NCBI GenBank assembly: GCA_001662655.1
Contig: KV460218.1
Direction: 5' to 3' (one strand)
DNA: 64,000 bases
Origin: Pseudogymnoascus verrucosus
Taxonomy: Eukaryota
Numbering within the stretch: position 1 is the stretch's first letter; the number at the start of each line of letters is the position of its first letter. A program made the position numbers and the translations under genes. Below are positions 37,299 through 56,096 of this stretch, one piece after another. The notes under the pieces were generated by a model. It was given only the letters and a program-made list of their open reading frames with translations, did no database searches and had not been told where the DNA came from.

Positions 37299-38284
37299 TG
37301 TGATGCAATAGGCAATTGGAGCAAGGCAGAGAGTACTAGTCGTTCCTTTCCCGTTCGCTGTCGGCCAAGTGACACAAATAAGTAGTCTGATTTATGATCT
37401 ACTGGAAACCTAGCTTTGGAAAATTGAATCAAATTTCCGAGTTCACACGGAGGCATTCCCCTTTGGTACGCACCCACCCTGCCTGATAATATTATCAACG
37501 AGTCCCTAGCAGTTATATATCGTCTCTGACCTTCCTCACCAGCAATCGAAACAACCAGCGTGCTCCCCTCGACTCCCACAACTCCAACTGTTACGAGGCA
37601 CTGCGACTACAATCGTCTGATTTTATTGCTCAAGAACTCACCCATCACGCAGCGGTTTCTCATTTTCAGAGGCGAATCCGTCTTTGCGCAAAGTTCACTA
37701 CTTATAGGTACTTGAGTGGGAACCGGATAGCGGCCCCTCATTGTCATCCTTTGATGAAAGAAGTTCGATAAATGTAGTAGTATCATGCGATACAATAGAA
37801 TCGCAAGCATGGCAACAAGTTTGTTGGTAGCGCCCTATGTGTGTGTAGGTTTAGCAAAGTCATACGAATGCATAACAATAAGTTATTATAGATATAGGCC
37901 GTCTCGGTGCAGCGGTGGCTTTGTGACTATCCAATTGTTGCCGATGACGTTGTGATGCCGGAATGACGGATCACTTTGTTTCGGAAGGTCTGGGTGGAAT
38001 TGCCATTGCTGCGGAGTGGTAGCGAATGCCTTCCGGGCGGGGTTCAGTGTTGGAGTAGCTGCCTTCCGGCCGGAAGGGGCCGGTCCCGGCATCTTGGAAA
38101 TCTTCCCGGCCAATGCATAGGGTTACTCTGTAAACTCTGGTAGAAGATCACAAGACTAACCAGTCTTCATTTGTTAGAAGCACGATTTATCTTCTTTTAT
38201 CTTCTTCTAGTTTCTTCTTTTCTTTTCTTCTTTTCTTCTTTTCCTTTATCCTTATTTTGAAATGAGAATAGTCTCCTCGGCATC

Positions 38285-39599: not shown

Positions 39600-41500
39600 C
39601 TTTACTTACATAATCGCGGAACTACTAAATAATGGCCACCTGCCCCATGCTTAGCTTTGTTCTACAACTTGGCTGCATTATTTGGCCCCCTACTGTCATC
39701 CGCATCCTAAACATAAACTGTGCATCCGGTGGTCCCCCTATAAATTATCACCTACCCTTAGGTCAAATTCCTACTCTTAACGCAGATCCTAACTAAGTAA
39801 TTAAGCCTAAGTTATGTTAGTTAGAGATCGCCAAAACTTTGCCAGTCCGCAGCACGCCAGTGGCTGGTCCCCGATGCTGCTATGTGCATGGTGTTTTGCG
39901 AAAATAGCCCGTCAAAGTCGGAATCGGTGCTGTCTGTAGATCAATCTTCTGCAATGATTCGGCTTTGCCTATCCTCTAATGTTGGTGTTGACGGGGCCAT
40001 GTTAATTGAGTAACAGATCTAAACGATGGGTGAAGGAGCAATTTCTAGACTGATACAGAAGTTGGAGGGATATTGCTCTTTATAAGTAGGAGACCGCCTT
40101 CTTATATGCTCCTCCATACATCATAACTTGCGTTTCCAGTTACATAATCTACGCCAGCCGTCTTGTGGCAGTGCTCCGACCTAGCCATATCTACAGGGCC
40201 GATGATATGCGGAGCTATCTTAGCCTTGTCATCTAGTAAGAGTACTTAATTATTATCTTAAGAAATCTAGCTTTACCATTTTTAATGAGATACGAGCGGT
40301 TCAAGGGTGTGGAGTCTCTACCTCATACACTTCGACAGCGCTAAGATCGAGAATAACGGCAGTACAAACTCCTTTCCAACTAAACATAAAAGGGGCTAGG
40401 AAGCATCTAATGACAGCTAAAGTAATTTCAAGCCGCTAGTCTTGGGAGGGCTTTTCCAGCTACGCCACCACCCGCTCGTTGTTATAAGAACATCGCTTCT
40501 ACTCTTCAGCCTACCTCACTTCTAACTTCCCTTAATAACAACATCCTATTTCTAGGACCTTCTTGACAATGTTAGCTACTAATTCTTACTTAGTAAAACA
40601 TAGCGACAGTGCACGTTTTCAGGTGAAGAAGGATTGAAATATGATTGACCCTAGAGGTAAGTGATACCACATTACGGCGTCGTGTCTTGCTAATAGAGGA
40701 ACAGACTGTCTAGTAATAGTCTACGGCGCTATCCCCTCGAAGCCTACTAATTAACTCCCTCATAAGAAGCCACGGAAGGGAAAGAGGAGTTAGAAAATCG
40801 CTCAATACTACTCTTAGGGCAGTGCTTCCCGATCCGTCCTAGAAGACGAGGATTCGATCGTAGTAGTCCTTAGTATAATGCACTTAGAGATAAGAACTGG
40901 CTCCACAGACTCATGGATGCAAATGTCACGCAGCTACTAGAGCAGTCCCGACACTCTTTCTCCATTTCTACCGTAGATGTTAAAGAAGCCACCGTGAGTA
41001 ATAAATAAGCGTAGGGAAAGGATAAGCGTGCTAGTAAGATTACCCTAATAATATATATTTCTATCTAAACTCTAGGAGATGTTCTACTTAGAATACGCCT
41101 TACTTAACCCTCTTAGAGTAGCTATATACATGTCGGCGATTCTGCATTGGGAAATTAGGGGGTCTGTGATAGGGAAAGCGCCGCTATAGCGCCCTCGCTG
41201 TTCGAACGAATAGTACCCGCCCATGCTAAGGTGACGTCGAATATAAATCTAATGCTGTTTCCACCTCAACTTACCCTAACTGCTCTCGAACAACTGCCCC
41301 CAGTTCTCGCTCATCGAGCAGAGGCCTCGCAGCCTACAACCTTATCTTGCTCGTTCTTCGTAGGCCTAGCCTCTAAGACCCGCATTTCCTACGAGTGCAT
41401 CCATCTGGTTGACCCATGTGTTTCACAATGTAGTGGCAGCTTTGATAGCTCATTATTCGAGCTAAGCCCTGCATTAGGCGAGAGAACCCCAGTTACCTGC
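39600..41500. pseudogene. Degenerate TpA/TAG-rich relic DNA (RIP-like decayed gene or transposon)
   Basis: No ORF of 60 aa or more for about 1.8 kb, visibly abundant TA/TAG/CTA, and a residual GTAAGT...CTAAT intron-like signal near 40657. Confidence 0.45.
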
Positions 41501-41517
41501 TACCTTATAATAAGAAC

Positions 41518-43219
41518 TTAGTTAATATATCTAACCCTCTCGGATATATCTTCTTCTTGATTAACTGTTTCCTTCTCACCACCTTCCGAACTGGTGTCAA
41601 TTTTCGTTGGCTCGGTCTCTGGTCGGCCAAGAGACTTATCTGTAACGACTCTATTGTCATCCCAGTCCGAGCCTTGCCATTGCGCAGCAACCGGCCCTTT
41701 GAAATTCTTGCGTGCATGGACGAGATACCAGGCTCCGCTGATAGCGGCGAACCCGGCAAACACGACGCTAGCGTAGTTCATGGATGATGCGGTAACGGGG
41801 ATGGAGACGGGCATGCTGAAGATGATCACTGAGAAGAAGATCCATGCCACGCTAATGCCGTTCACAATGTAACCCGCGCGTTTGAGAGGGAAGAGCGAGT
41901 GTTTGACAGCTTCCCGGCCACGAAGAAGGTTGACAAGGATAGGGGTGCAGTAGGAGGCGTTCAGGCAGATGGTGGCCACTCCAGTAAACGAGTTGAATGC
42001 TGCAGAGGAGCCAAAATACAGACAACCAAGGGCGCAGTCAACAAACGCGGAAAGAAGCAAGGCTGATAGCGGGACGTTGAGTGTCTTGTTGACCTTTTTC
42101 CACAGCTTGTATCCAGGAATTGCGCCGTCTCTAGCAAAAGCGTATGTGCATCGAGAGGAAGCAGTCAAGGCGCCAACTCCGGCAAAGAAGAGGATCCCCA
42201 GAATCAGCAGTAGCAAGCAGAAGCCAGCAGTCTTTGAACCTGTGGCCCTTGTTAAAATAAGACCGATAGGCTGCCCATTGGCCACATCGAGGAGCAGTTT
42301 CACGTCTGGTAGTACGAAGAGGATGGGAATCAGATATACAACGCCAGTAAGGCCGGCTGCAGCAACTGAGAGGATGATGGCTTTCGGAACTTCGCGCTCT
42401 GGGTTCTGGACTTCTTCACACATGGAGGCAACCATGCCATATCCTGTTAGGACGTAGGCGCCTGCAGTTCGTTAGCGTCACTATCCATAATGGCAGTTGT
42501 ACGATATAAGAGGAGCATCCCGTACCTTGCAAAAGCCCAACAAAAAAGGACCAGCCCGCTGGCCAGCCACTAGCAGATGGATCGTAGTGGGTAAAGACCG
42601 TTTTCGCGGACCTCTTATGATCACACATGGAAAGCAGTGTAACCAATAAAATGAGGATGCTAATGCCCGTCCAGTAGATGCATACTTTGTTGATCTGGTC
42701 AAGATAGCGCGACCCAAAGGCATTGACAAGCGTGCAGATAAGCATGACAGCCCAGAAGCAAAGCACTGTCTGCCACTGATTAGGCGTAAACTCCTCATCC
42801 CAAATTGATATCGCGCTCAATATCAATTGCGCACCAGAGAAGTTGATAGAGAGTGTAACAGTCCAGTTGCCAACAAGGGTGAGCCAGCCAGCAATGAAGC
42901 TCACAACAGGTGCCCAGTGAGGAGTGCTGAGCATGGCAGACCAATAGTAGGTACCGCCCGCAGTTGGGTAGACGGCACATATCTCAGCAAGCGACGCAGC
43001 AATGCAGAGGGAAATAAGGGAGACGACGACCCAGCCCCAGAGAACGGCAACAAACTGGCCATTAGTCAAGGTGATGTACATTGTAGTAGACAGACCAAAG
43101 GGAACAGCCATGATGGCAAAGGACAGGCCGAGAATGCTCAACATGCTGAGGCTGCGAGGGAGCTCGGACTTGTAGCCCATCTGGCTGAGAGAGTTTTTGC
43201 CATCGCGCGTCGTCTCCAT
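41518..43219 (-). CDS. Amino acid/amine permease of the APC superfamily (Uga4/Hnm1/Tpo5-like); one intron near 42462-42524
   Basis: MGYKSELPRSLS, SLAEICAVYPTAGGTYYW, YGMVASMCEEVQNPEREVPKA, SRCTYAFARDGAIP, MNYASVV. Confidence 0.92.
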
Positions 43220-44775
43220 GGTGTTGTCGTGTGCCGTTGCGTCGATGGGTTTGGAGCTGATTCAAGAACTATGTTGGGGTAGTTTAGGAGGTGGTAGCAA
43301 GTTGTTGATGGATGAGAGACCGAGAAACGAATAGTCACGGCCTTGCATCTCGTAAGCCAACAAGGAGGGAATGGGAATGGAAATGGAAATAGAAATGGAA
43401 CTGGAAATGGGAACGGATTGGGAACGGATACTTATACTTATAGTGGAGTAATTGCATGTATCTACGTCAGTTGCTGGCGATAGGAGTATGTGTATCGGCC
43501 CGTGCTCGATCCACGATGCTGCTTTATCTTATCTAATACTTTGTACTACACATTTGCTCCAATTACAGCGTCGCTTTTAGCTATCAAGTAATCTCCCATG
43601 TAACTATATACCATTCTAGCTAACGGGGGGTATAGTTAGTATTAGGAGCGTTAATTAAGTTAAGGTGTTGCTTATATACTTCAACTTTTAAATGCGCCTA
43701 TAAGCTTTCAATTGGATTTAAATCAAGACTATAAGGTAGCCAATTAATAACATCAATTCTATGCTCATGTAGCCATGCGTTTATAATTCGACATAATGGA
43801 TCTCCTTGTAATCGTCGGAACCAACTGTTCGCTCCGCTCAAGTATTCGAGCTCGTGTTTCAACACTTAATTCAAGACCCCTAGGCATTGTTGAAGGTGTT
43901 CACAAAACAAACGATACGGCCGCGACAACTAAAGCAGCATTCATTTACTTCGTCTGAGCACAGGCCCGTACACATACTTTTGTCGCCCGTACTGTATCTT
44001 GGTGTACGCCGTACGAGGTAAGGGGTATAGGGGTGTAGAGTATGGGGTACGGGATGCGGGGTCCGGGGTGCGGGGTAAGAAGTACAAAGTACAAAGTACT
44101 CGTTACAAAGTAATAGGTGGTGTTATGTAGCACCGTCGAAACCCCCCAGAGTCCCAACGCACCGGTTGCCAATCAATCCACTACTACGAAACCAGCAGGT
44201 GCCACTGTTTGGGATTATAATATGACAGGGATTGCGGTGCGCGCTCGCTGCTATTCTGCATATGGTCTGGTGTCGAGCGCGGCAAGAGTTGCAATTGGCT
44301 CAAGCCAGCCACTAATGGGGCCCCTTAGCCCCTCGTAAAACGGGAACGAGCGTGGTATCGAGGGCGTGGGTGTCCACCTTTGATAGAGAAGCCTCCATAC
44401 TGTAGATCTCATAAATCAGTAACCCCGCTTGCCCATGCTGTATCGCAAGCGCTTGGGATTATGTAAGATTCTCTGACCATCGGACAGACGCTATCGCCAT
44501 CCATGCCCTTGAGTCAGTCAACTCCACACCATCACTCTCCAACAAGCCTACCTCCCCCGCATTCGAATCCACCACACGCTTGGATCTCTTGTTCTTCGGC
44601 CCCCGTCTCCTTCGGCGGTTGCCGATGGCCCAACTGCATTTTTGTCTCTTTGTCTGACTTTAGATGCCGTGGTTTGTCGCAAGGATTATGACCTAGACTC
44701 ACCGGACGATACTCTAGTTCCAGCATACCTTGTGAAAGAGGTCTGCGAGCATTCGACTCTACCCATCAGCACAAC

Positions 44776-46751
44776 ATGGCCCTCATCCGCCGAAGCAGAA
44801 CCGGCTGTTTCACCTGCCGCAGCCGTAAAAAGAAATGCAATGAGGCGAGGCCCATCTGCAGCGGCTGTCGGCGCAATGATCTTGAATGTCGCTGGCCTGC
44901 ACCACTGTCTTCTGCGAAGCGTCCCAAGGAGGGCCACATTAAACCGACTACCGCCGCCTTCCAGCCTGGGCCTTCCAAGACGCTTACCGCCTCTGCGTCT
45001 GGAGCTGTCATTCTTCGCCCACGGCCGGCGAGCTTTAGCCACTTCGTGCCCTCCCCTAAAGAGAACGGGATAGCAGCAGTAGCAACAGGAGAGGCAGCTC
45101 CAGCTACCCCTTATACACAGCGTGGTTATTCATTCTCGGCTCTGCGCCCGACAGATCACTTCTTTGATATTGCCGATCCTATGCCGATATTGGATACCAT
45201 AATAGTCGAAGCAAATGGCGCCGAAAGCTACTCGCGCTTTTCGACCGCCACGGATACCCAAGAGGTTGCCCCATCATCCCCAGCGCCCTCGAAATATTAT
45301 TCAGAGCTGTCTCCATCCTCGACGTCCCAGGGTTCGTCATCCTCGCCATCCTCGTCATCCTCACCACCACCAACCGTCGTCATTCCACCCAACGGTGTCG
45401 TCGGAAGCGGAGTCAGCGCCATCACAAATCTCGACGACAGTCCTTTTGATCCCAGCCCCGATCATACACACTCGCTACAGGACTTGCAACTCTGTTTGAC
45501 TAAACCCTTGTCTTTATTTCCGAATCATGGCGAACATTCCCCAGACCTCCTCGGCTTCTATCTCGACCGTACTGCTAACTGCATGGGTAACGGCTCGACC
45601 GACTCCAACCCCTTCATCACCAAACTCATCCCTCTCGCCTTTTCACACTCACTGCTTCTGCAGCTGATAATGGCCCAGAGCGCCGTCCACAGACAAATGT
45701 CCAAGGACCGACACCCTAGTGACGAGGTGGCTATAAGGTCCTACAGTGACTCGCTTCGCTATTTCAGAACCGTAGTTGACGGATATGTCTCCGGGAGGGA
45801 GGAAAATGCACTTGTCCTTACTGTCGGCAGCCTCATTCTTTCGCTCACAGAGGTACGTTGTCTGAATCCATCCACATGCCCCAATTTACGTCTTTGACAA
45901 TCACTACCCAGGTGGCCAGAGGAGACAGTCATGGAAGCACGTTCGACCATATTAGCGCCGCAAAATCTCTACTTCCTAGGCTTCTTACTTCGCCTAGACG
46001 GGATCTGAGCGACGATCTTAGGGGATTCCTCGTTGAATACTATACGCATATGTCGTCACTGAGTATGATCTCCATGGGCGCCCACCACACCGCACAGCCC
46101 CTTCCCGACCCCGACATGGAGCGCCTGGCTACTGGTCTTATTGAAAAACACTACATCGGCCAGCTCTGCGGTTGCTGGTTGGAGTTGCTTGTGTTGATCC
46201 CCAAGATATTTATCCTTGGGCAGAAGAAGATGGCATCCAAGTCGGATGGCCAGCCTTACTGTCTTTCACCAGATGACATCACCAACTATGGCTTTCTCCA
46301 GTCACAGATACTCGCCTTTTCCCCGCATCCATCTGCAAACCTAGATACGACACTTGCAGGCTTAGTATTTAAACAGGCCGTCCTCTTGTATCTATGGACC
46401 ATCTTAGCCAGCCCTCACCATAAAAGTGACAACAACGCCATGCTGTATAACCTTATTCAGAGCGCTGTCGCGGAAGCCTTGTGTCTCCTTGGTCAAATCC
46501 GAGATTCAAGCCGTATCAATACCAGTCTCTGCTGGCCGCTCGTAGTCATTGGTTGCTGCCTTTCGGACCCGGATGCACAACAGGTTTTACGATGTCGCCT
46601 ACAAATAATGCTCGACACTATTGCTCTTGGCAATATGCGAGAAACACTTTCAGTACTAGAGCATGTTTGGGCACAGCCACTAGAGGACAGGAACCCTTGG
46701 GCACTTTGCAAAACGATGCAGGAGCATCAGATTTTGATATCATTCGCGTAA
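44776..46751 (+). CDS. Zn(II)2Cys6 transcription factor with Fungal_trans_2-type C-terminal domain; intron 45853-45911
   Basis: RSRTGCFTCRSRKKKCNEARPICSGCRRNDLEC; DSNPF, LCWPLVVIG and GNM motifs. Confidence 0.9.
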
Positions 46752-46839
46752 CATACTAGAACAGCTACCCTCCCAAACCACTGGCAAAGAAACAAAACGC
46801 CATGTGCTAGCTTAACTCTGAAGACCTTCTAGTCAAACC

Positions 46840-47903
46840 CTAAGCACTACCTAAGTTCTTGGGCCCCTGCGTTGCTGGTCCTTCCGGGGTTACGTATGCC
46901 TTTGTCAAGCCTCCGTCTACCACAAAGTCGGTAGCATTGACGAAGCTGCTCTCGTCGCTGGCTAGGAAGACTACGGCATAGGCCTGCTCAATCGCCTCGC
47001 CAAATCGACCACTCGGGAAATGAACTTCCCGTCGAAGCCTCTTGGCTTGATCGTCTCCAAGCCAATCCTGCAACAGAGGTGTGCTGCCGTAATGTCAGCT
47101 CGATGCGTCAGATGAAAGAGGTAAAAGGCAGCGGTGCTTACTTGAGGGGTGCAGGACAGAGCGAGTTGAAGCGATACCCTGCGAACGAGTTATCAGATTA
47201 GAAAGGACAGGAGAGGAGCGAGCGGATTGTGATACTTACCCTCCCTAGCATGCACAATGGCCAGCTCGCGTGTCAAGGCTAAAACAGCTCCCTTGCTAGC
47301 TGTATACGCAAGTTGAGGTGTCGCCGCTCCCACGAGAGCCACCATGCTAGCCGTGTTGATAATGCTGCCCTTTTTCTTGCCGTGTTTCCGCAGCGAGCGG
47401 ACAGCATGTTTGGACCCGTACCAGACACCCTTGACGTTGATGTTCTGGGTCAAGTCCCATATAGCATCGGAGCACTCGTCGGCATCTCCATCCTTGGGGT
47501 GCATGATGCCGGCATTGTTGAATATGACGTCCAGTCCGCCCCAGGAGTCAAGGTGCGCTACGGCAGCTTCGACTTCACTCTCCTTGGACACGTCGACCAC
47601 TCGGGCTTCAAGCTTACCGGAGCGGTCGGGGACGATCTCCTTGACTTTCAGCAGGGCCCTTTCCAGTGCCGGTTGGGCGACGTCGGTTAAGAGGACGGAA
47701 GCTCCCTCTTTGCTCATCTGGATGGCTGTCTCGAGTCCAATGCCACTGGAACAAGACCGTTAGAAGACCATGCGACTAGTTAATTTTTTTGTTGACGTGG
47801 ACTGTTGAAATGGGACATACCCGGCGGCGCCGGTTACAATGGCGTTTTTCCCAGCAAGCCTACCAGCCGTGGTTGCGATATCTCTGTCAAGTGTAACTGT
47901 CAT
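46840..47903 (-). CDS. Short-chain dehydrogenase/reductase, multi-exon
   Basis: GRLAGKNAIVTGAAG|GIG, FNNAG, NTAS, YTASKGA (YxxxK), FLASDESSFVNA...DGG. Confidence 0.92.
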
Positions 47904-48156
47904 GTTTGATAAGGTACAGGATCACTAGAAAGTGAGGGAGAATGATAGAGAAGAAATATGCAGAGTAGTAGTAGGACTGATGCAGTTATTGCAAGGGAAC
48001 AAGTCCATCCACGTCCTGGCTTTATATGTAGTGAGCGCGGCATCAGGGCGCGCTTTTGACAAAACAACGTCCCATTCCTCCACGCTGTCTTGCCCACGAC
48101 TCTATTGAATCACTGTAACTGTAGGACGATGAGGTAATCTAGACGCCTATGCACTT

Positions 48157-48663
48157 ACACACTGCGGCTTAGAAAGGTTGCCGCGATAGCGTCGTGTAGC
48201 GCGGTTTCAGTTCGATTCCAGTTGGGGCGTGGCAACTCGCCCGCGGTGCGCGATGGGCATCAAATATGCGCCACATGGACTTGTAGCGGACCTCCTCACT
48301 TCTGAGGTTTCTAGTTGATCGACATCGTGGTTATCTGCGCTTTGGGTGTTATTAGTTTGGATGTTGCCTAAGTACTTAGGGCTCCAGGAGATGTAGACCG
48401 CGGTGCTACAACTCCATGTAGCGCGCACAGCTGAGGTCCGTTGCGCAAAGCGATCCACATACTATGCTCCAACTACAGTGAAATTAGAACCACACACTGC
48501 GGCTGGAACGGTTGCCGCGTTGCTGTGATGGCGTCGTGTAGCGCGGTTCCAATTCAACTCTAGTTAGATCATGGCAACTCCCCGCGGTGCGCGATGGACT
48601 TAGGCGTGAGCGCCACAAGTAGTTGATGCGGGGCTCCTCACATTCTGGGTTTTCTAGTCGACG
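48157..48663. repeat. Diverged direct repeat, 2 x ~170 bp, offset 335 bp, between the ALDH stop and the SDR start
   Basis: ACACACTGCGGCT...GGTTGCCGCG...GCGTCGTGTAGCGCGGTT...TGGCAACTC...CCGCGGTGCGCGATGG...CTCCTCAC begins at 48157 and again at 48492. Confidence 0.85.
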
Positions 48664-48801
48664 CCACTGTCGTAGCAGCTTACACGCTATCTTGTTTCCA
48701 AGAAGTCACGGTCAACGCGTCCAGCCGCTGCATGGAGAGTCTTTACAGATCAAAGTACCAAGTATGAAGCCAATATACATTTTGTTCCTACAATATTCTA
48801 T

Positions 48802-50398
48802 CTAGCATTGGATGTTTCTGATGTGATGACTCTTCATATTGACAAAGGCATCAAATGCGCGCGGTCCTAGCGTGCTGCCGAGACCCGAGTCCTTCCAACC
48901 AATCCAAGTAAGGTCCTAGTAGCACTCGTGTCAGTATTTAGAAGAAGCATGTTAAGCGATCGATACACTGGTACGACACAGAGCGGGCTGGCTGCTTACC
49001 GGGTTAGGACAGTCGGCACGGTTAACGAAAACTGTTCCAGCTTCCACTTCATTCCCAAGCTCCCTTCCGCGTGCAACGTCTTGAGTCCAGACGCTCGCCG
49101 TAAGTCCGTAGTTACTGTCGTTCATGAGGTCTACAGCCTCTTCATCACTCTGGACCTTCATCACTGGGATAATTGGACCGAATGTCTCCTTCTTCATGAC
49201 TTCCATGTCGTGAGTGACGTTGACCAGGATTTTGGGTGCGACGTAGCTGCCCGTCTGAGGCAGGGACATGAATGAGGTGTTGGTTGGAGTAGCATCGACA
49301 GCTCCTTTTAGGAGAGCATCCTCAACTTGGGCCAGGATGGCCTTGACGGCTGCGTGAGAAATGACGGGACCCACGGTCGTGGACTTGTCTGCGGGGTCAC
49401 CAAGTATGTAGCTGTGTTACTTCAGTCAGCATGAGGTAGGTATATTGCACAGTAGGAAGATAAACATACCCCTTAAGTTCACGTTGGAGCTCTCGCACAA
49501 ACTCGTCGTGGACATCAGCATGCACATACACCCTCTCCACAGCGCAGCAGCTCTGTCCAGAGTTAAACACCGCGGCGTCCACGATATTTGATGCTGTCCA
49601 CTTCAAGTCGGAGTCGGCGCGCACATAGGCGGGATCGTTTCCGCCGAGTTCAAGGTTCAGGGGGACGATACGATTTGCCGTTGCTTGCCGGAGCTCCAGT
49701 CCACCGACCGTAGAGCCCGTGAAGGAAATCTGCTTGATTTCCGGTAGTCGAACAACCTGTTTCAGCGTCTCAAGGCTACCAGAGTGAAGAACTTGGAGAA
49801 CGTCAGGTGGGAGACCAGCTGTATTGAAGGCCTCTTGGAAGGCGTCTGCCACGAGCGGTGTTTGTGGAGAGGGCTTTAGAATCACTGAGTTGCCAGCCAG
49901 CAGGGCAGGGATTAGTGTGTTTACTGTGATGATCCAGGGATACTGCGAGATGATGTTGGTGAATTCTATGCTTAGACTTTGGTCTGGGGTACTTACATTC
50001 CACGCCGAAACGATTAGGACAGGTCCAACGGCCTCTTTACTAATCCACCTCTGGAATCCATCTTCTTGACGGCCAGGCAAGTCCTCTAGCGCTTCAGATG
50101 CGATATCGAGAAGATACTCAGCACGCTTGCGCATTGTGTCAATTTCGACGTTGGCAAAAGTGATCGGTCTGCCCATCTGTTGGGATAGCTCTTGGGAGAG
50201 CCTTTCTTGCTGGGTGGCAACATAGTCCAACGCCTTGACGACTATGGATTTGCGCTGATCAAGGGAAGTTTTCTGGTAAGTCTTGAAAGCCGCCCGGGCA
50301 CGGCCGGCCACTAACCGGGCTTGCTCAACGGTGGTGCCATCGTGTTCGAAGATGAGGTGGCCGGTCGAGGGCGATACAGTCCGGATCTTGTCTGACAT
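48802..50398 (-). CDS. NAD(P)-dependent aldehyde dehydrogenase, multi-exon
   Basis: AWN|YP, KPSPQTP, FTGS, LELGGNDP, NSGQSCCA (catalytic Cys), ETFGP. Confidence 0.93.
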
Positions 50399-50813
50399 GA
50401 TTTGCGGAATATCACGTTGCCGTGAAACTTGAATTTGTAGATTATAAGAGAGAGGTGTTATAGTGTTGTTATGAGTTCGTTTACGGCGCACTATGAAAGG
50501 GTGGTGGAGAGGTGTGGGAGGTACTTATACTTGACGTCGGCATCCAGGCTCAGTTGCGCGGCTCGATGTGACACGTGGATCTCTCAAATATCATGTAGTT
50601 TATGCACTCCTTTCGAGACTGTCTGCCTCTTTCCCGATTTGTCCAGGTTATCCAATAGACCGTACTGGCGGTTCACTTGTCAAACTATATTTTCGGTTAC
50701 GAGGTTTGGGTCTGCAGATTACGAAGCGGAATATACTGGCTTTCACAATGGTGATACATATCAAGATCCATAGTTTTCATCCTAAATAATCCATTCCCTT
50801 TAGTTATAAATAT

Positions 50814-51683
50814 TCATCCATCAAGTAGAAACTGCCAAATAGCAGACGCCACCAAGTCCCCCCCATGTGGCTTTCCAACCTTCGCCATGCCGTCGTTGAA
50901 CATGGCATCATCAAAAACGTTCTGCACATGTCTCGTCTGAATTATTTGTCTCATAGTAAATTCATCAAACTCTGGGTGCGCCTGGAGCGACAGAATGCTT
51001 CCCTTTTTGTAAAGTCCTTGAATCGGACAGCTCGGGCTGCTCCCGAGATTAACCAACCCCTTTGGTACCTCTAGAACGGCGTCCTTGTGCATTTGATGCA
51101 GTGACTAATTTTAAAATTAGCATTTTTCAAACATGTTCCAAAGGTAACACTTCAGTACCAGGCTTGAAGTTCCGAAGAGCTGGCGGCCATGGCTGTTCAG
51201 ATCAATCGTGTTTACCGATACCTCCCATCCTCCGTGGCTCACGCCGACCGCGGCGCCCATCGCACGTCCGATTATCTGGTGCCCAAAACAGATGCCGACG
51301 AGTGGCTTCTGGTGCGTGGTGAGAATGTCTTTGACGCGGTCAACTAGCCGGACGATCCACGCGTCGTCCTCGAAAGCTGTGTGCTCTGTTCCGCCATGTG
51401 GTCAGAGCCATGTCGAACGTCATTTCCTCCTTCGACTGTTCACTAAGTACTCACTGCTTCCCGACAGCAATATCGCGTCTACTTCACGAATATCTGGAAA
51501 CGAGCTGGACCCAACGACATCCCACTTTGAGACACGGAGCTGGATGTCGCCGGCCGCTGGGCCACCTCTTTCCAGTCCCTTGGTGAGCAGCTCCTTGAAG
51601 ATGTCGCCATACGTGCCGCGAGAGGTAACGACTGTGTCGACTGGGGTGTCGCACTCCAGAACAGCAATGTGGTATACGCCCAT
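50814..51683 (-). CDS. Stand-alone class I glutamine amidotransferase-like protein (candidate gamma-glutamyl amide hydrolase), multi-exon
   Basis: LLSGS, VGICFGHQ (nucleophile Cys) and SLQAHPEF (His-x-Glu); no synthase domain attached. Confidence 0.88.
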
Positions 51684-52192
51684 TTTGATGATTGATTTTG
51701 ACGTTCAATAGATTTATTAAAAGTTTTCATTTCTTGACCAGGGCAGTCATATCTGTAGAGCGTTTTAGTATTCAATTAACCGCCCACCCTCCTATCCACC
51801 ATTCATTCCCAATAATGTTCCAGTGTCGCTCATTCAAAGGGCAAGCAGCAGATGATTTGGCGGCAAACACCCTGATTGGTAAAATTATAAAAAAATTAGC
51901 CGCTGTAAGTGGAGGGCGGCTCCATGATCGTAAGACCGCGCGGACCGCGTCTCGATGGGTCCCAGTTCTGGCGCAGCTCCGGGTGGGCCTTCAGCTAGGT
52001 CGAAACGGCTCCATGTAAGAGGATTCCAATAAGCACAACGTAGTTTATAATGCAGATTCCGGGTTGAAATATAATGACTGTATCCGCAACTGTTTCTAAT
52101 CTTCCACCTTTCTCTTAAAAGATAGCTACATATCTCTTTTTTTGTCTCTGGCCATACTGCGTCTCCCAGCGCCAAAATACAGGTTATCCACC

Positions 52193-53890
52193 ATGACACT
52201 CCTAACGCTGGACAACATCGCCGACTCCTTGAAAAATGACCTCAAAGTCAAAGTCGCCGGCGTCGACTCGTCAGGTATCCTCCGTGGCAAAGTAATGTCA
52301 AAAGACAAATTCCTCTCAACCGTCGAATCCGGCTTTGGGTTCAGCTCTGCCGTCTTTGGCTGGGACATGCACGACGCCCTATACGCCGATCCCGCAAGCT
52401 CGGCCATGGCATCGGAGAATGGAGGTTATTCCGATTTTATTGCTGTTGCAGACTTGTCGTCATTTCGAAGGTTGCCCTGGGAGGAAAACATCCCGTTCTT
52501 TTTGTTGCGCTTCACTGTCAACGATAAGCCGGTGGTTGCCTGTCCGCGAAGTATGCTTGCGGGCATCACGCAGAAGCTCGCGCAGAATAATATTAAAGCG
52601 CTAGCAGGCGGTATGATTCCCGATTCCGCATGACTAATTATAGGGCATGGAAGGACTACTTGTAAGAGTAAGTGCTGACAGCCATACAGTGGAACTGGAA
52701 TTCTTCAACTTTCAGACCCCAACCGAGGATGGATACGGTGTAGGCGGTAGCAGGCCGGATGTTGCGGGATTCCTAGCAAAGAATGCTCCAGGAGCTCTAC
52801 GGCCAATCACCCAAGGCATGTTCGGTTACAGCATGACCCGTCCAACTGCGTCCAAGAAGTACTTTTATGACATCTTCAACACATGCGTGTCGGTTGGCTG
52901 CGATCTAGAGATTCAGCACACGGAGAGTGGGCCCGGCGTCTATGAGGCGGTTTGTGACCCCCCCCTTCTCCCTCCCTCCCCCAGCCTTTAATACTCGTGA
53001 GGCTGGGGCTGACAACGACCATAGGCTTTAGCTGTGAAGGAAGTCTCAGAAATGGCTGATCGTGTCAGTTTGTTTAAGTAAGTGGCCGTCTTCCAGCTCA
53101 GAGAGAACCTGGCTAATTGAAAAAGGCTTACAACCAAATCAATTGCCATGGACCACAACATCACGCCCTGCTTCATGGCTAAGCCCTTATATGGATGGCC
53201 CGGAAGCTCGGGGCATATCCACATGTCGCTTACCGATGCAGACGGTAAAAACCTATTTGCCAGGGAGACGCGTGATGACTCGGCGCGCTGGAGAGATATC
53301 GCCAGCTTCTCCGATATGGGACGTCACTTCCTGGCTGGTATCCTCGATGCTCTCCCAGATATCATGCCCCTCCTCGCACCCAACATAAACTCGTACAAAC
53401 GCTTCGTCGAGAACTGTTGGGTCCCAGTTAGGTTGAACTGGGGCCTCGAGGACCGCCTTGTATCTGTGCGTCTCATTGCGCCCCCCGTGTGCAAGGCAGC
53501 GGCTACGCGCATGGAGATTCGAATCCCCGGCGCCGACCTGCACCCGCACTATGCCCTGTCTGCCTTGCTTAAGGCGGGAATGCGCGGTGTAGAGAAGAAG
53601 CTGGACATTTCGGTGCCTCCCGCATCGGCGAGGAGCAATGAGGAGGCGGCTCTGTTACCTAACACGCTTGACGAAGCGACAAGGCGATTCAAGGCTCCGG
53701 GGAGCGTGGCAAGAGAGATTTTTGGTGATACATTCGTGGAATTTTACGCAGCATCGAGCGAGCATGAACTGAGGCTCTGGAGAGAAGCGATAACGGACTG
53801 GTAAGTTAAATGTTTCTTTCACGACATATTGTGATGGTGACACTGACATTATCATCTAGGGAACTAAAACGGTATATTGAGACAGCATAA
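52193..53890 (+). CDS. Glutamine-synthetase-like gamma-glutamyl ligase (PuuA/GlnA3/GlnA4-like), multi-exon
   Basis: GILRGK, VELEFF, HTESGPGVYE, FMAKP, GSSGHIHMS, NSYKRF, WGLEDR, RMEIRIPGAD. The flap loop reads ENCWVP rather than the GYEAP of true GS. Confidence 0.9.
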
Positions 53891-53949
53891 CGTAATGCGA
53901 CAGTTGACTTTGTACAAGAATATAAAAACATTTGACTTACAATAGACAA

Positions 53950-55700
53950 GGACAACTTTCTTCTCTGTCATGAGTTCAAAGGCTCACGTCAAAGTGTAGC
54001 CTAATGCAAATGCAAATTTCTAATTTGAACATTTATTAAATCACCTCTTAATATCTTCCTTTTACATTTGCCTTAGAAACTAATGAATCGTTATGCATAA
54101 CGTAGTTCAGGGGCGTGTCGCCTACTAAAACACCAAAACGCGTCAAACCATCAATAGTTCACAATGCCACAACTAACACAAGCCTAATCCTTTAATTAGA
54201 GGGTAGCATAGTGTAATATCTTAACTATTTTATAAGGATGTTTAAATCTAAAGTTAAATCGTATGTTTCTAGGCTTATTAAGAAGAACAAACCTTAAGCT
54301 ATTATTATCTATATGATATATTACCCCTTTAAAACAAATGCATCTAAATAGGAGAGCTAGGTAGACTTACTACTAAAGTTAATAGGATATAACTAATTTC
54401 CTAGCTAACTACAGACGGCTATTAGTGCAATATATAAGCTTGCATCATAGCAGATCTAGATTCTAGGAGTGCTCGTAGTTCCGTGTGCTCTTTTTAAGTC
54501 TCTTAATAGGAAATGCGAAGCTAATTACATAGCTAGAGTAGAGTTAAGTGTAGAAGGAGGGCGTAAGATGGCATTATAGTTGAGTAAGGTCATAGACTCG
54601 TTCATCATAGCGCAGACAAACATCTGAGGTATAAAGCCATGTACTAATTACAATAACCTCGTGGATGTATAGGCGTACATATAGTCAGTACTGTCGTCTA
54701 TGTCGTTAGAGGATTTTATTTTTATTGCCATTAGTTAAGAATTGACGGTCAATAATATCTTGCAGCTGCTTAGTTACTCTTTCTTAAGTACTATTATCCT
54801 AGTGTGCGGCCTTTCGTGTTGCTAAACTTGGAGCGAGGTATGAGCGAAAGGATTGTCGTGCGTATAGATGCTAGTGAGATTGTTCATTAGGTACAAGAAG
54901 AGAGGAAGGTACTTTAGTTTATTCAACGTGATGTTGAGAGACTAGAGAATATATTAAAATTACCTACAAAACGTCATTTGTGCGTTCGATTAAACTATTA
55001 ATTGACTTACTTCAAGGTTACAGAGATCTAAGACTTCTTCTAGCAGAATTGAAATAGCATTTTGTGCTAGATGTAATATCTTCAAGGATCGAACAGAACA
55101 GATCTAAAAATATGTCAACGGATGAATCAAATACATTATTCTTCCAGAGACATCACAAACGAAAAGTACCGTCAAAACTGAACAAAACAAACAAAACTGC
55201 GGAATATAGCCTAGAAGAACGAAAGGTAAGAAGAGCCCTGCATAGTTAAAATCCCGCTGACTGATTCTAGAGCAGCAATGTGCATCGTCATATGGGCCAA
55301 CAAAGATCAGTTCAAGGAAGAAAGGACGAGAGTTGATGGAAAGCGGAGAAAATTTCGCAACGTATGGCAACGATTGACAACAAAATCTTCTTCCAGACGA
55401 GACCACCTGCCTCTAGGATATGCAGAATTGGCCTCTGGCCCCAACCACCAAGTTAGACCAATCTTTTTGAGGCGTAGATCTTTCACGCCAAGTGTGGAAG
55501 AGGTTGATACCTGTCTAGCCGAGTCAATTAAAGGCGTGGCATGACTTTGAGAGGGGGTGTGAGCTGTATGCAGCAAGGCTATTCTAAATCTGTAGACATT
55601 ATTGGCAATTTAGATCACAACGAAGTAATGCTCATTGTTTGTAGTTATTTGAATAGCGGCTAGCTAGACCCATCTCTTGCAATCAGGGCGGAAAGCAACG
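53950..55700. pseudogene. AT-rich, TpA-enriched relic region (RIP-like decayed element)
   Basis: Sharp drop in GC, abundant TAG/TAA/CTA, only short ORF fragments. Confidence 0.5.
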
Positions 55701-56096
55701 GACTTGGCACCCTCATTAGCCAATCCGTACTTTGGCGTTAAGCATATCAAAACCTGTGCACGCATCGATATCTGTTATATTCTACATCAGCTGTGTCCCA
55801 TGGCCACTCAGGATTCTCGCTACAACGGAAGGGACGTTACACCCTGTACGTTTAAGCAGACTCTCATTCCATACTGTTTCTCATTCAAATATGTGCTAAG
55901 AGCTTTCTACAAACGGCATATTTTGTTCTAACTATAAAGACTGGTAATCTGCTCGTCTTCGCACCCTTAGAGACGAGATGAAGTTAATCAGCGATGCAAG
56001 GCATATATGTCTGTCGCACGTGTTTTATTCTCAGGACGGAAACGCTGTAACTTGCAGCAGTCAAAAGCAAAAATGGCAAAATGGCAAAATAAAAAA

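What the first reader, a model, noticed from the sequence alone, without database searches (positions are those of the whole stretch)
41518..53890. Complete fungal gamma-glutamylation cluster for amine (ethanolamine-type) catabolism
Seen: six adjacent intron-containing genes encoding an APC amine permease, a Zn2Cys6 TF, an SDR, an aldehyde dehydrogenase, a stand-alone class I GATase with an intact Cys-His-Glu triad, and a GS-like ligase. The ligase lacks the Glu flap of true GS (ENCWVP vs GYEAP) and shares a ~500-bp divergent promoter with the hydrolase. Established: Streptomyces coelicolor clusters GlnA4 (gamma-glutamylethanolamide synthetase) with an SDR, an ALDH and a gamma-glutamyl hydrolase, and the E. 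coli Puu pathway uses the same protect-oxidise-deprotect logic for putrescine but with an oxidase. Inference: an SDR instead of an amine oxidase points to an amino-alcohol substrate: ethanolamine -> gamma-Glu-ethanolamide -> aldehyde -> gamma-Glu-Gly -> Gly + Glu. I do not know of a characterised self-regulated fungal version.
Basis: partly seen in the sequence, partly recalled or inferred. Interest (0 to 1): 0.85.

Follow-up and report, generated by a model that had tools for sequence, protein, structure and literature searches.

The report
Fungal gamma-glutamyl amino-alcohol breakdown gene cluster
Six neighbouring genes in this soil fungus look like a complete, self-regulated route that tags an amino alcohol such as ethanolamine with glutamate, oxidises it and then removes the tag, a route so far described only in bacteria.

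Summary
Window 41518-53890 (a Pseudogymnoascus species) holds six intron-containing genes: an APC permease, a Zn2Cys6 factor, an SDR, an aldehyde dehydrogenase, a stand-alone class I amidotransferase-fold protein and a GS-like ligase. Spliced RNA contigs from three metatranscriptome studies confirm 9 introns in four of them.

The ligase keeps 11 of 11 GS core residues but has Trp in place of the flap Glu. The amidotransferase-fold protein is closest, by sequence and by fold (TM 0.86), to Arabidopsis gamma-glutamyl peptidase 1.

The SDR is 44-52% identical to seven bacterial SDRs, all of which lie beside GS-like genes. Among these are clusters of the Streptomyces glnA4 (ethanolamine) type, and one cluster carries an annotated ethanolamine permease. 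The nine closest bacterial ALDHs all lie directly downstream of the closest bacterial ligases.

In fungi the ligase/hydrolase pair is adjacent in 7 other genomes of three further classes. One metagenome contig carries ALDH, SDR, TF, hydrolase and ligase together.

The substrate is inferred, and the ligase is not a GlnA4 orthologue. I found no fungal description in print. It is a new variant of a known kind; interest 0.6.

The parts
41518..43219 (-). APC-superfamily permease, amino acid/choline transporter type; presumed importer of the amine. About 545 aa, two exons; the intron near 42462-42525 is approximate.
   Evidence: Pfam AA_permease_2 on both pieces (E 3e-34 and 2e-24). Best NCBIfam family is TIGR00907 (257 and 205 bits on the two pieces). 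It is 34% identical to the permease beside the GS-like gene of A. silvanus and 32% to that of S. viridifaciens, against 24% to PuuP. Several introns fit the frame; I chose the one that fits the Pfam profile coordinates. Unspliced parts are covered by RNA-library contigs.
44776..46751 (+). Zn2Cys6 transcription factor, about 636 aa; presumed pathway-specific activator. Intron near 45853-45911, approximate.
   Evidence: Pfam Zn_clus (E 3e-8) and Fungal_trans_2 (E 8e-10 and 8e-29). A homologue (44-47% identity over three stretches of 70, 132 and 286 residues) sits inside the related cluster on metagenome contig L029.
46840..47903 (-). Short-chain dehydrogenase, 289 aa, four exons; presumed gamma-glutamyl-amino-alcohol dehydrogenase.
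   Evidence: Pfam adh_short. Best NCBIfam family on both exons is NF004713/PRK06057. The model is open, with N-terminal VTGAAGGIG and a YTASK motif. All three introns are skipped in one 1105-nt RNA-library contig (X1 record 2), and some are also skipped in X5, X6 and X3. It is 52, 47 and 46% identical to GS-linked SDRs of A. silvanus, Arthrobacter U41 and S. viridifaciens. Context: 7 of 7 against 0 of 4.
48802..50398 (-). Aldehyde dehydrogenase, 466 aa, four exons; presumed gamma-glutamyl-aminoaldehyde dehydrogenase.
   Evidence: Pfam Aldedh (E 7e-66 and 2e-38). ELGG and GQSCCA motifs are present. The model is open with three GT..AG introns; two of them are skipped in RNA-library contigs. It is 42% identical to the ALDHs of the Legionella and A. 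silvanus clusters and 40% to that of B. vietnamiensis, against 31% to PuuC. The top 9 of 9 plasmid-collection relatives lie directly downstream of GS-like genes.
50814..51683 (-). Stand-alone class I amidotransferase-fold protein of the GGP1 type, 248 aa, three exons; presumed gamma-glutamyl amide hydrolase (deprotection step).
   Evidence: Pfam PF00117. The model is open, and both introns are skipped in RNA-library contigs. The triad C109/H195/E197 is invariant in 23 of 23 homologues. The best solved relative is Arabidopsis gamma-glutamyl peptidase 1: phmmer E 1.4e-19 against 1e-8 for GMP synthase subunits, and Foldseek TM 0.86, rmsd 2.1 A on a model of pLDDT 94. No BLAST similarity to PuuD (E 0.31).
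51684..52192 (.). 509-bp divergent intergenic region between the hydrolase and the ligase.
   Evidence: Start codons at 51683 (minus strand) and 52193 (plus strand). The same divergent pairing occurs on L029 (about 755 bp between the matches) and L089, and in E. coli puuA/puuD.
52193..53890 (+). GS-like gamma-glutamyl-amine ligase, 478 aa, five exons (52193-52610, 52690-52949, 53025-53077, 53126-53800, 53860-53890).
   Evidence: 471 of 478 residues are identical to P0001 of Pseudogymnoascus sp. 05NY08. Pfam Gln-synt_C E 3e-77 on P0001. 11 of 11 GS core residues are kept; E327 is W342, D50 is Ala and S53 is Ala. The best solved relative is 5dm3 = Csal_0679 of C. salexigens (E 5e-42). Two introns are skipped in RNA-library contigs.

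Best explanation
The six genes form a catabolic 'protect, oxidise, deprotect' pathway for a primary amino alcohol. Ethanolamine is the leading candidate.

Proposed steps:
1. The permease imports the amine.
2. The GS-like ligase uses ATP to join the amine to the gamma-carboxyl of glutamate.
3. The SDR oxidises the free hydroxyl group to an aldehyde.
4. The ALDH oxidises the aldehyde to the acid. For ethanolamine the product is gamma-glutamylglycine.
5. The GGP1-type hydrolase releases glutamate and the amino acid (glycine).
6. The Zn2Cys6 factor switches the genes on.

What is shown here:
- gene content, splicing and transcription
- the active-site make-up of the ligase and the hydrolase
- homology of each enzyme to members of bacterial gamma-glutamylation clusters
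- partial conservation of the cluster in other fungi

What is inferred: the substrate, the order of the steps, co-regulation, and the role of the TF and the permease.
For: (1) Ligase.
- It has a GS catalytic domain, and 11 of 11 metal, ATP and glutamate residues are conserved.
- The flap Glu is replaced by Trp. The same Glu-to-Trp change is tabulated for PA5508 and FluG against B. subtilis GS in PMC6478659 (passages).
- The best solved relative is Csal_0679. It lies beside the ethanolamine-binding protein Csal_0678, in a locus that PMC10132767 cites as an ethanolamine pathway (passages).

(2) SDR.
- It is 52/51/49/48/47/46/44% identical to seven bacterial SDRs. Each of these lies within 4 kb of a GS-like gene. 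The next four relatives (38-40%) have no GS-like gene nearby.
- T. roseum has GS-like, SDR and 'eat, ethanolamine permease' in a row.
- Of 80 actinobacterial loci of the glnA4 type, 77 hold this SDR, 73 an ALDH, 73 a C26 hydrolase and 25 the permease. The commonest gene order matches Fig. 2 of PMC6529630.
- That paper shows GlnA4 to be needed for growth on ethanolamine and to glutamylate it in vitro (passages).

(3) ALDH.
- It is 40-42% identical to the ALDHs of the Legionella, A. silvanus and B. vietnamiensis clusters, against 31% to PuuC.
- The 9 best plasmid-collection relatives all lie directly downstream of 9 of the GS-like hits listed (H1-H3, H5-H9 and H22).

(4) Hydrolase.
- It is of the GGP1 type by sequence and by fold, with an intact triad.
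- Its best bacterial relatives lie about 2.6 kb from the best GS-like hits in Photobacterium (two records) and Legionella. The Legionella operon is GS-like, ALDH, Fe-ADH, GATase.

(5) Fungal conservation.
- Ligase and hydrolase are adjacent by locus tag or consecutive accession in Stylonectria, Fusarium nematophilum, Cosmosporella, Thelonectria, Xylariales sp., Phaeosphaeriaceae sp. and Penicilliopsis. They are adjacent in at least 9 Pseudogymnoascus genomes.
- In Xylariales sp. one gene model fuses GATase and ALDH in the window's order.
- L029 holds ALDH, SDR, TF, GATase and ligase. L089 holds ALDH, GATase and ligase.
- 23 of 27 fungal metagenome loci with at least 3.5 kb upstream of a GS-like paralogue carry a 50-86% homologue of this SDR.

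(6) Transcription. Spliced contigs of the SDR, ALDH, hydrolase and ligase occur in RNA libraries of three studies.
Against: - No experiment bears on the fungal genes.
- The ligase is only 29-35% identical to any bacterial cluster ligase. It falls in its own clade, outside the GlnA4-type clade and outside the Legionella/B. vietnamiensis clade, and the deep nodes are unresolved (quick tree of 51 rows that I chose, SH-aLRT support only). Substrate specificity therefore cannot be carried over.
- The hydrolase is only 25-28% identical to GGP1 and to the Legionella protein.
- The full cluster is rare. Of 15 fungal metagenome loci with at least 8 kb on both sides, only 1 has the GATase and the ALDH.
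- No permease homologue was found beside the ligase in L029 or L089. The only permease match in the other fungal loci was a weak one in L086 (29% over 174 residues).
- In Aspergillus felis a 68%-identical ligase is fused in a gene model to a D-serine-dehydratase-like protein, which is a different context.
- In Niveomyces the pair is 11 accession numbers apart. In Mariannaea the two best hits lie on different contigs.
- Co-induction was not tested. Contig depth cannot rank expression.
Confidence: 0.6

Rival explanations
1. The chemistry is the same but the substrate differs. The cluster degrades another primary amino alcohol (for example 3-aminopropanol, alaninol, serinol or 4-aminobutanol), and ethanolamine is at most a side substrate.
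For: The ligase lies outside the GlnA4 clade and is 29% identical to the glnA4-type ligase. Relatives of the same ligase family serve isopropylamine/alaninol-type clusters (Paenarthrobacter, annotated ipuC in P. aurescens), diamines and aromatic amines (PDB titles). The Aspergillus felis orthologue lies beside a D-serine-dehydratase-like gene, which would suit a hydroxy-amino-acid product better than glycine.
Against: The SDR's closest relatives are those of glnA4-type clusters and of a cluster with an annotated ethanolamine permease. Ethanolamine is the commonest natural amino alcohol (general knowledge, and the introduction of PMC6529630).
Confidence: 0.22
2. The cluster is biosynthetic or detoxifying. 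Gamma-glutamylation serves as a transient protecting group while a small metabolite is made, or as a way to neutralise a toxic amine, and the cluster does not feed the cell.
For: Gamma-glutamyl tagging is used in biosynthesis elsewhere: FluG is discussed as acting on a gamma-glutamylated intermediate (PMC6478659), and a search listing names a gamma-glutamyl dipeptide as substrate of BesE. GGP1, the hydrolase's closest solved relative, works in plant secondary metabolism (recalled, not from a call). In Streptomyces the related enzymes also protect against toxic amine levels (abstract of PMC8998196).
Against: Pfam found no backbone enzyme (PKS, NRPS, terpene synthase) in the cluster or in the 42 other long reading frames of the window that I scanned. 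An importer-type permease, two dehydrogenases and a hydrolase that recycles glutamate fit catabolism. All bacterial counterparts found here sit with uptake systems.
Confidence: 0.08
3. The cluster is a Puu-like pathway for polyamines (putrescine to GABA).
For: The ligase is 27% identical to PuuA over its whole length. The divergent ligase/hydrolase layout is as in puuA/puuD. NCBIfam scores for aminobutyraldehyde dehydrogenase are among the top ALDH hits, though far below their cut-offs.
Against: The cluster has no FAD oxidase and no aminotransferase, whereas PuuB, or an aminotransferase, fills this step in the diamine clusters. The hydrolase is not PuuD-like (E 0.31). The ALDH is closer to the ALDHs of the Legionella, A. 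silvanus and B. vietnamiensis clusters than to PuuC (42% against 31%).
Confidence: 0.05
4. The genes are neighbours with no shared pathway.
For: Only 1 of 15 well-flanked fungal metagenome loci repeats the full set. Permease linkage was not seen in other fungi.
Against: The ligase/hydrolase pair is adjacent in four fungal classes. ALDH and hydrolase are collinear in Xylariales sp. and L089. L029 has five of the six genes. Each enzyme's closest bacterial relatives are clustered with one another.
Confidence: 0.03

Closest known systems
Streptomyces coelicolor ethanolamine utilisation cluster SCO1610-SCO1615 (GlnA4 = gamma-glutamylethanolamide synthetase; PMC6529630)
   Same: It has the same six functional classes: short-chain dehydrogenase, ALDH, GS-like ligase, regulator, amino-acid-type permease (present in most Streptomyces, absent in S. 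coelicolor) and amidotransferase-type hydrolase (Fig. 2 legend). The SDR is homologous at 46% identity and the permease at 32% (through the S. viridifaciens copy). The ligase and the hydrolase are transcribed divergently in the commonest Streptomyces layout (35 of 80 loci).
   Different: The fungal ligase is 29% identical and sits in another clade. The ALDH is 33% identical. The hydrolase is of the GGP1 type, not the PuuD/C26 type. The regulator is a Zn2Cys6 factor. The genes have introns and separate promoters.
Proteobacterial ethanolamine pathway of the C. salexigens / Phaeobacter type (GS-like, ALDH, iron alcohol dehydrogenase, gamma-glutamylglycine amidohydrolase; PMC10132767, PMC9397018 Table 2)
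   Same: The closest solved relative of the ligase is Csal_0679. The fungal ligase and ALDH are most like the GS-like/ALDH gene pairs of this operon type (35% and 42% to Legionella lytica). Legionella also uses a GATase-fold hydrolase, 28% identical to the fungal one.
   Different: The alcohol dehydrogenase there is Fe-ADH (PF00465) and the hydrolase is usually a formylglutamate amidohydrolase (PF05013). Uptake is by a TRAP transporter. The only Fe-ADH in the window (38261-39417) is of the maleylacetate reductase type and belongs with aromatic catabolism.
E. coli Puu pathway (PuuP, PuuA, PuuB, PuuC, PuuD, PuuR)
   Same: The logic of glutamylation, oxidation to the acid and hydrolysis is the same. 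Ligase and hydrolase genes are divergent. A permease and a regulator lie in the cluster.
   Different: The substrate is a diamine, oxidised by the FAD oxidase PuuB, which has no counterpart here. PuuD is not detectably similar to the fungal hydrolase. PuuA is 27% and PuuC 31% identical.
Arabidopsis gamma-glutamyl peptidase 1 (GGP1; PDB 9k7i-9k7l)
   Same: It is the closest solved protein to the fungal hydrolase in sequence (E 1.4e-19) and in fold (TM 0.86-0.87 over about 250 columns). Both are stand-alone class I GATase folds with a Cys-His-Glu triad.
   Different: Identity is 25%. GGP1 processes glutathione conjugates in plant secondary metabolism (recalled), not a catabolic gamma-glutamyl amide.
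FluG of Aspergillus nidulans (amidohydrolase fused to a GS-like gamma-glutamyl ligase; PMC6478659)
   Same: It is a fungal GS-like ligase with the same flap change from Glu to Trp and with conserved metal and ATP residues.
   Different: FluG is a fusion protein involved in development, and its substrate is unknown. The window's ligase stands alone in a catabolic-looking cluster. FluG was not placed in my tree.

Membership tests
GS-like gamma-glutamyl-amine ligases (PuuA / PauA / GlnA3 / GlnA4 / IpuC kind) | GS catalytic domain with conserved metal, ATP and glutamate ligands | tested here: met
   PF00120 E 3e-77 on P0001. E141, E143, E218, E225, H274, H276, R336, R354, R359, E374 and R376 align with E129, E131, E212, E220, H269, H271, R321, R339, R344, E357 and R359 of E. 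coli GlnA. The E. coli residue list is recalled.
GS-like gamma-glutamyl-amine ligases (PuuA / PauA / GlnA3 / GlnA4 / IpuC kind) | Loss of the ammonium-site residues of true GS (flap Glu327, Asp50, Ser53) | tested here: met
   W342, A65 and A71 stand at these positions (the alignment of the N-terminal domain is less certain). The flap holds Trp, Phe or Tyr in all 6 bacterial GS-like rows aligned. The same Glu-to-Trp change is tabulated in PMC6478659.
GS-like gamma-glutamyl-amine ligases (PuuA / PauA / GlnA3 / GlnA4 / IpuC kind) | ATP-dependent gamma-glutamylation of an amine in vitro | not testable with these tools
   Needs an enzyme assay.
GlnA4 orthologues (gamma-glutamylethanolamide synthetase) | Falls within the GlnA4 clade | tested here: not met
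   The glnA4-type rows form their own 8-row clade (SH-aLRT 100). The window's ligase sits in a separate 26-row clade (97). It is 29% identical to the S. viridifaciens copy. S. coelicolor GlnA4 itself was not among my rows.
GlnA4 orthologues (gamma-glutamylethanolamide synthetase) | Clustered with SDR, ALDH, hydrolase, permease and regulator | tested here: met
SDRs of the GS-linked (SCO1611) type | Close sequence relationship to SDRs encoded beside GS-like ligases, plus the SDR cofactor and catalytic motifs | tested here: met
   44-52% identity to 7 such SDRs, 7 of 7 beside a GS-like gene, against 0 of 4 for the next relatives. Best NCBIfam family is NF004713 on both exons, below its whole-protein cut-off because single exons were scored. 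VTGAAGGIG and YTASK motifs.
Proteobacterial ethanolamine operon (C. salexigens type) | Iron-dependent alcohol dehydrogenase (PF00465) and formylglutamate amidohydrolase (PF05013) in the cluster | tested here: not met
   Neither family occurs in 41518-53890. The Fe-ADH at 38261-39417 matches maleylacetate reductases (E 1e-50 to 8e-58).
E. coli Puu pathway | FAD-dependent gamma-glutamylputrescine oxidase and a PuuD (C26) hydrolase | tested here: not met
   No oxidase in the cluster. P0121 against PuuD gives E 0.31.
GGP-type gamma-glutamyl peptidases (class I GATase fold) | Stand-alone GATase fold with a Cys-His-Glu triad, closest to GGP1 | tested here: met
   Triad invariant in 23 of 23. Phmmer E 1.4e-19. 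Foldseek E 6e-22, TM 0.86, rmsd 2.1 A; the next fold scores TM 0.71. Model pLDDT 94.3.
GGP-type gamma-glutamyl peptidases (class I GATase fold) | Hydrolysis of a gamma-glutamyl amide bond | not testable with these tools
   Needs an enzyme assay.
Fungal cluster-specific Zn2Cys6 regulators | Zn_clus plus fungal TF middle domain, encoded inside the cluster and conserved with it | tested here: inconclusive
   Both domains are present. A 44-47% homologue lies inside the L029 cluster, but that is one locus. No regulon data exist. A candidate site (GTTGCCG, 4 copies in the cluster's intergenic DNA) was found post hoc.
Amino acid/choline transporter branch of the APC superfamily (TIGR00907) | Best match to TIGR00907 over the whole length | tested here: inconclusive
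   257 and 205 bits on the two exon pieces, covering profile positions 2-482, against a whole-protein cut-off of 598. The spliced protein could not be handed to the scan.

The most novel reading that the evidence does not exclude
Filamentous ascomycetes have an unrecognised eukaryotic gamma-glutamylation route for amino alcohols, and it comes in two layouts. The first is a very common head-to-head pair of GS-like ligase and SDR. The second is a rarer full cluster that adds an ALDH, a plant-GGP1-type hydrolase, a dedicated Zn2Cys6 regulator and a permease. The full cluster would be the first eukaryotic catabolic pathway of this kind, and it would give the GGP family its first catabolic role. 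Its parts resemble two different bacterial versions (SDR and permease: the actinobacterial/Deinococcota type; ligase, ALDH and hydrolase: the proteobacterial type). That pattern leaves open an origin by gene transfer followed by reassembly.
Probability: 0.5. Interest if true: 0.7.

Novelty: new variant of a known kind. Interest (0 to 1): 0.6.

Why it matters
Ethanolamine is released wherever membranes decay. How fungi use it, or other amino alcohols, as a nitrogen source is poorly described. In seven full-text searches I found no paper describing a gamma-glutamylation route in any fungus.

If the reading holds, several consequences follow.
- Hundreds of fungal genes now filed as 'glutamine synthetase', 'GMP synthase' or 'anthranilate synthase component II' (names) would get a concrete function.
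- A family of plant-type gamma-glutamyl peptidases would gain a catabolic role.
- A compact, inducible six-gene module would become available for study and for engineering.
- It would give a clear case for asking whether fungi assembled a bacterial-style pathway from transferred or from ancestral parts.

Tried and rejected
- Whole genome: none is held for the window, so paralogues and a second ligase/SDR pair in the same fungus could not be sought.
I then used one bacterial protein and a closer fungal alignment on metagenome contigs.
- Vetting et al. 2015 (the C. salexigens pathway paper) is not held. What I say of it comes from passages of PMC10132767 and PMC9397018 and from the PDB title.
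- Fe-ADH as a seventh member: the Fe-ADH at 38261-39417 looked like the bacterial ethanolamide dehydrogenase family, but it matches maleylacetate reductases and lies near a phenol 2-monooxygenase. Rejected as a cluster member.
- Growth data: PMC7536203 (Biolog data on Pseudogymnoascus) and its supplement 1 list O-phosphoryl-ethanolamine as a phosphorus source only. They hold nothing on ethanolamine as a nitrogen source.
- Earlier findings: look-ups by place and by sequence found nothing. The look-up by words gave two related notes.
- RNA contigs: none covered the TF intron, the permease intron, ALDH intron 49943-49996 or ligase introns 52611-52689 and 53078-53125. Those models rest on reading frame, GT..AG ends and homology only. 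Contig depth was not used to rank expression.
- TF-site search: GTTGCCG occurs 13 times in the window against 6.9 expected, and 3 of 100 shuffles reach 13. Four copies lie in the cluster's intergenic DNA, none lies in the hydrolase/ligase promoter, and one lies 7 nt from the ALDH start. The motif was chosen post hoc, so I keep it as a lead only.
- Ligase model: it is mediocre (pLDDT 63, 12-row alignment). I used its fold search only to read PDB titles.
- Control genomes: the 14 named controls of the genome search do not include Streptomyces.

Full report
**What is there.** The window comes from a Pseudogymnoascus species. The last large ligase exon is 99% identical to a protein of Pseudogymnoascus sp. 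05NY08, and my spliced ligase model shares 471 of 478 residues with it.

I scanned 14 long reading-frame pieces between 41518 and 53890 against Pfam, and 11 of them hit a family:
- amino acid permease, two pieces
- Zn_clus plus Fungal_trans_2
- short-chain dehydrogenase, two pieces
- aldehyde dehydrogenase, two pieces
- class I glutamine amidotransferase
- glutamine synthetase catalytic domain

The 3 pieces without a hit are further exons of the amidotransferase and the ligase.

Open models with GT..AG introns give these products:

| Gene | Length | Exons |
|---|---|---|
| Permease | about 545 aa | 2 |
| Transcription factor | about 636 aa | 2 |
| SDR | 289 aa | 4 |
| ALDH | 466 aa | 4 |
| Amidotransferase-fold protein | 248 aa | 3 |
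| Ligase | 478 aa | 5 |

The permease and TF introns are approximate. The outer limits of the models equal the finding's coordinates.

**Transcription and splicing.** I laid contigs of four public runs on 41000-54200. Three runs are on record as RNA libraries from three studies; for the fourth, RNA is only a guess. The contigs skip nine of the predicted introns, all with GT..AG ends on the coding strand:
- all three SDR introns, within a single 1105-nt contig
- two ALDH introns
- both amidotransferase introns
- two ligase introns

The contigs are 90-99% like the window, so they come from close relatives. They show that four of the genes are real, spliced and transcribed. They do not show co-induction.

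**The ligase.**
- P0001 carries the GS catalytic domain (E 3e-77). It scores far below the cut-offs of the NCBIfam models for true GS and for PuuA.
- Aligned with E. coli GlnA, 11 of 11 core metal, ATP and glutamate residues are kept. The flap Glu327 is Trp342, and Asp50 and Ser53 align with Ala (the residue list is recalled).
- All six bacterial GS-like rows aligned there also lack the flap Glu (four Trp, one Phe, one Tyr).
- PMC6478659 tabulates the same Glu-to-Trp change for PA5508 and FluG (passages).
- The best solved relative is 5dm3 (E 5e-42). Its PDB title names Csal_0679 of Chromohalobacter salexigens.
- Csal_0678 next door is the ethanolamine-binding protein, and the locus is cited as an ethanolamine pathway in PMC10132767 (passages).

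**The hydrolase.**
- The amidotransferase-fold protein has C109, H195 and E197 invariant in 23 of 23 fungal homologues.
- It shows no BLAST similarity to PuuD (E 0.31).
- Its best solved relative is Arabidopsis gamma-glutamyl peptidase 1 (E 1.4e-19, against about 1e-8 for GMP synthase subunits).
- A confident model (pLDDT 94.3) superposes on GGP1 at TM 0.86-0.87 and rmsd 2.1 A. The next fold scores TM 0.71.
- A gamma-glutamyl-bond hydrolase is therefore the best-supported reading.

**Bacterial counterparts.** The Fig. 2 legend of PMC6529630 lists, for the Streptomyces ethanolamine cluster, a membrane protein, a short-chain dehydrogenase, an aldehyde dehydrogenase, glnA4, a regulator, a putative ethanolamine transporter and a glutamine amidotransferase. 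The paper shows that GlnA4 is needed for growth on ethanolamine and glutamylates it in vitro, and it calls the enzyme specific for ethanolamine (passages).

I fetched 80 actinobacterial loci around relatives of a Streptomyces viridifaciens GS-like gene. Of these, 77 hold the SDR, 73 an ALDH, 73 a C26-type hydrolase and 25 the permease. The commonest order (35 loci) matches that figure.

Identity of the spliced fungal proteins to cluster proteins of bacteria:

| Fungal protein | Bacterial cluster relatives | E. coli Puu / GlnA |
|---|---|---|
| SDR | 52% Allomeiothermus silvanus, 47% Arthrobacter U41, 46% S. viridifaciens | not compared |
| ALDH | 42% Legionella lytica, 42% A. silvanus, 40% Burkholderia vietnamiensis | 31% PuuC |
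| Permease | 34% A. silvanus, 32% S. viridifaciens | 24% PuuP |
| Ligase | 35% Legionella, 35% Pseudorhizobium, 29% S. viridifaciens | 27% PuuA, 28% GlnA |
| Hydrolase | 28% Legionella | no significant match to PuuD |

**Context of the closest relatives.**
- Among the 11 best plasmid-collection relatives of the SDR, the seven at 44-52% identity all lie within 4 kb of a GS-like gene. The four at 38-40% do not.
- One of the seven, Thermomicrobium roseum, has GS-like, SDR and a gene annotated 'eat, ethanolamine permease' in a row.
- The nine best relatives of the ALDH all lie directly downstream of nine of the GS-like hits listed (H1-H3, H5-H9 and H22).
- The best relatives of the hydrolase in Photobacterium (two records) and in Legionella lie about 2.6 kb from the best ligase hits. 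The annotated Legionella operon reads GS-like, ALDH, Fe-ADH, 'GMP synthase'.

The enzyme that produces the aldehyde varies between bacterial clusters:

| Step filled by | Where |
|---|---|
| Fe-ADH | Legionella; C. salexigens type |
| SDR | Actinomycetota, Deinococcota, Thermomicrobiota |
| GMC oxidoreductase | Rhizobium leguminosarum |
| Aminotransferase, with polyamine ABC transporters | Pseudorhizobium, Rhodobacteraceae M382 |
| FAD oxidase | E. coli |

**Limits of the homology argument.** I built a quick tree of 51 rows of my own choosing (SH-aLRT support only).
- The window's ligase lies in a 7-row fungal clade (support 100).
- That clade is sister to a second fungal clade, inside a 26-row clade (97) that also holds a Collimonas protein.
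- The glnA4-type rows form their own 8-row clade (100), and the Legionella/B. vietnamiensis rows lie in a separate 12-row clade (98). The deep nodes are open.

The ligase is therefore a gamma-glutamyl-amine ligase but not a GlnA4 orthologue, and its substrate cannot be read from the tree.

**Conservation in fungi.**
- By locus tags, ligase and hydrolase are neighbours in Stylonectria norvegica, Fusarium nematophilum and Cosmosporella sp..
- By consecutive accession numbers they are neighbours in Xylariales sp. PMI_506, Thelonectria olida, Phaeosphaeriaceae sp. PMI808 and Penicilliopsis zonata.
- They are neighbours in at least nine Pseudogymnoascus genomes, one of which has two copies.
- They are 5 genes apart in six Clonostachys records, 3 apart in Capronia epimyces and 11 apart in Niveomyces.
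- In Xylariales sp. one gene model fuses the hydrolase and the ALDH in the window's order.

Of 80 fungal-like metagenome loci found with the ligase:
- L029 holds ALDH, SDR, TF, hydrolase and ligase.
- L089 holds ALDH, hydrolase and ligase.
- The rest carry ligase paralogues (45-57% identical).
- 23 of the 27 loci with at least 3.5 kb upstream have a 50-86% homologue of the window's SDR, and in 18 of them it lies head to head with the ligase.
- Only 1 of the 15 loci with at least 8 kb on both sides has the hydrolase and the ALDH.

Two earlier notes of this scan describe the same ligase/SDR pair in other fungi, and one search confirms that the pair is common. Against a uniform picture, the Aspergillus felis orthologue is fused in a gene model to a D-serine-dehydratase-like protein. 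No permease was found beside the ligase in L029 or L089, and the only permease match in the other loci was a weak one in L086.

**Literature.** Seven full-text searches returned bacterial work and the FluG paper. None describes a fungal gamma-glutamylation catabolic cluster. The library lacks most subscription journals, so this is not proof of absence.

**Verdict.** The cluster is a eukaryotic variant of the bacterial gamma-glutamylation pathways for amines, built for an amino alcohol. Ethanolamine is the leading but unproven substrate. The cluster differs from every described version in four ways:
- its GGP1-type hydrolase
- its Zn2Cys6 regulator
- its separate ligase clade
- its mix of parts that resemble two different bacterial layouts

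Noticed in passing
window 28252-39417: A separate catabolic-looking group of genes for aromatic compounds lies upstream: an MFS transporter (28252-29601), a phenol 2-monooxygenase (31331-33387; NF006144, 228 bits) and a maleylacetate-reductase-type Fe-ADH (38261-39417; best PDB hits 3jzd, 3hl0, 3w5s). Two long frames between them (34761-35906 and 36594-37298) have no family hit.
   Followed up: partly
window 54001-56000: An AT-rich, gene-poor stretch (GC 0.387 against about 0.5 elsewhere) bounds the cluster on the right.
   Followed up: no
window 44618, 48177, 48511, 50416 (plus strand): GTTGCCG occurs four times in the cluster's intergenic DNA, three times as the right half of a CGG-N12/13-CCG element (48165, 48500, 50405). 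In the whole window it occurs 13 times against 6.9 expected. It may be a site for the cluster's Zn2Cys6 factor, but it was picked post hoc and is absent from the hydrolase/ligase promoter.
   Followed up: partly
P0015 (Aspergillus felis), P0004 (Stylonectria norvegica), P0027 (Aspergillus hancockii): These are over-long gene models of the ligase orthologue. P0015 is fused to an alanine-racemase-N / D-serine-dehydratase protein, so in that Aspergillus the ligase has a different neighbour. P0004 and P0027 have long extra parts with no Pfam hit.
   Followed up: partly
P0244 (4424 aa), P0285 (2757 aa), P0378 (1356 aa): Giant unnamed proteins in the representative library carry 7, 3 and 3 stretches that match the GS-like ligase. 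I do not know what they are.
   Followed up: no
Pseudogymnoascus sp. WSF 3629 (P0433/P0455 and P0435/P0449): This strain has two copies of the adjacent ligase/hydrolase pair (VE00_10835/10836 and VE00_06439/06440) on different contigs.
   Followed up: no
window 43366-43410: A short stretch of low-complexity sequence in the permease/TF intergenic region attracts unrelated metatranscriptome contigs that run on as loose ends on both sides (tables 7 and 8).
   Followed up: no
L009 (Arthrobacter sp. U41 plasmid): The GS-like, C26 hydrolase, ALDH and SDR operon lies near genes annotated as choline kinase family, inositol monophosphatase family, amidase and a sodium:solute symporter. This hints at a link to phospholipid head-group breakdown.
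   Followed up: no
L180 (Rhizobium leguminosarum plasmid): A further bacterial variant: a PuuD-family hydrolase, a GMC oxidoreductase, a GS-like ligase and an ALDH lie in one stretch. A flavin alcohol oxidoreductase stands where other clusters have the SDR or Fe-ADH.
   Followed up: no
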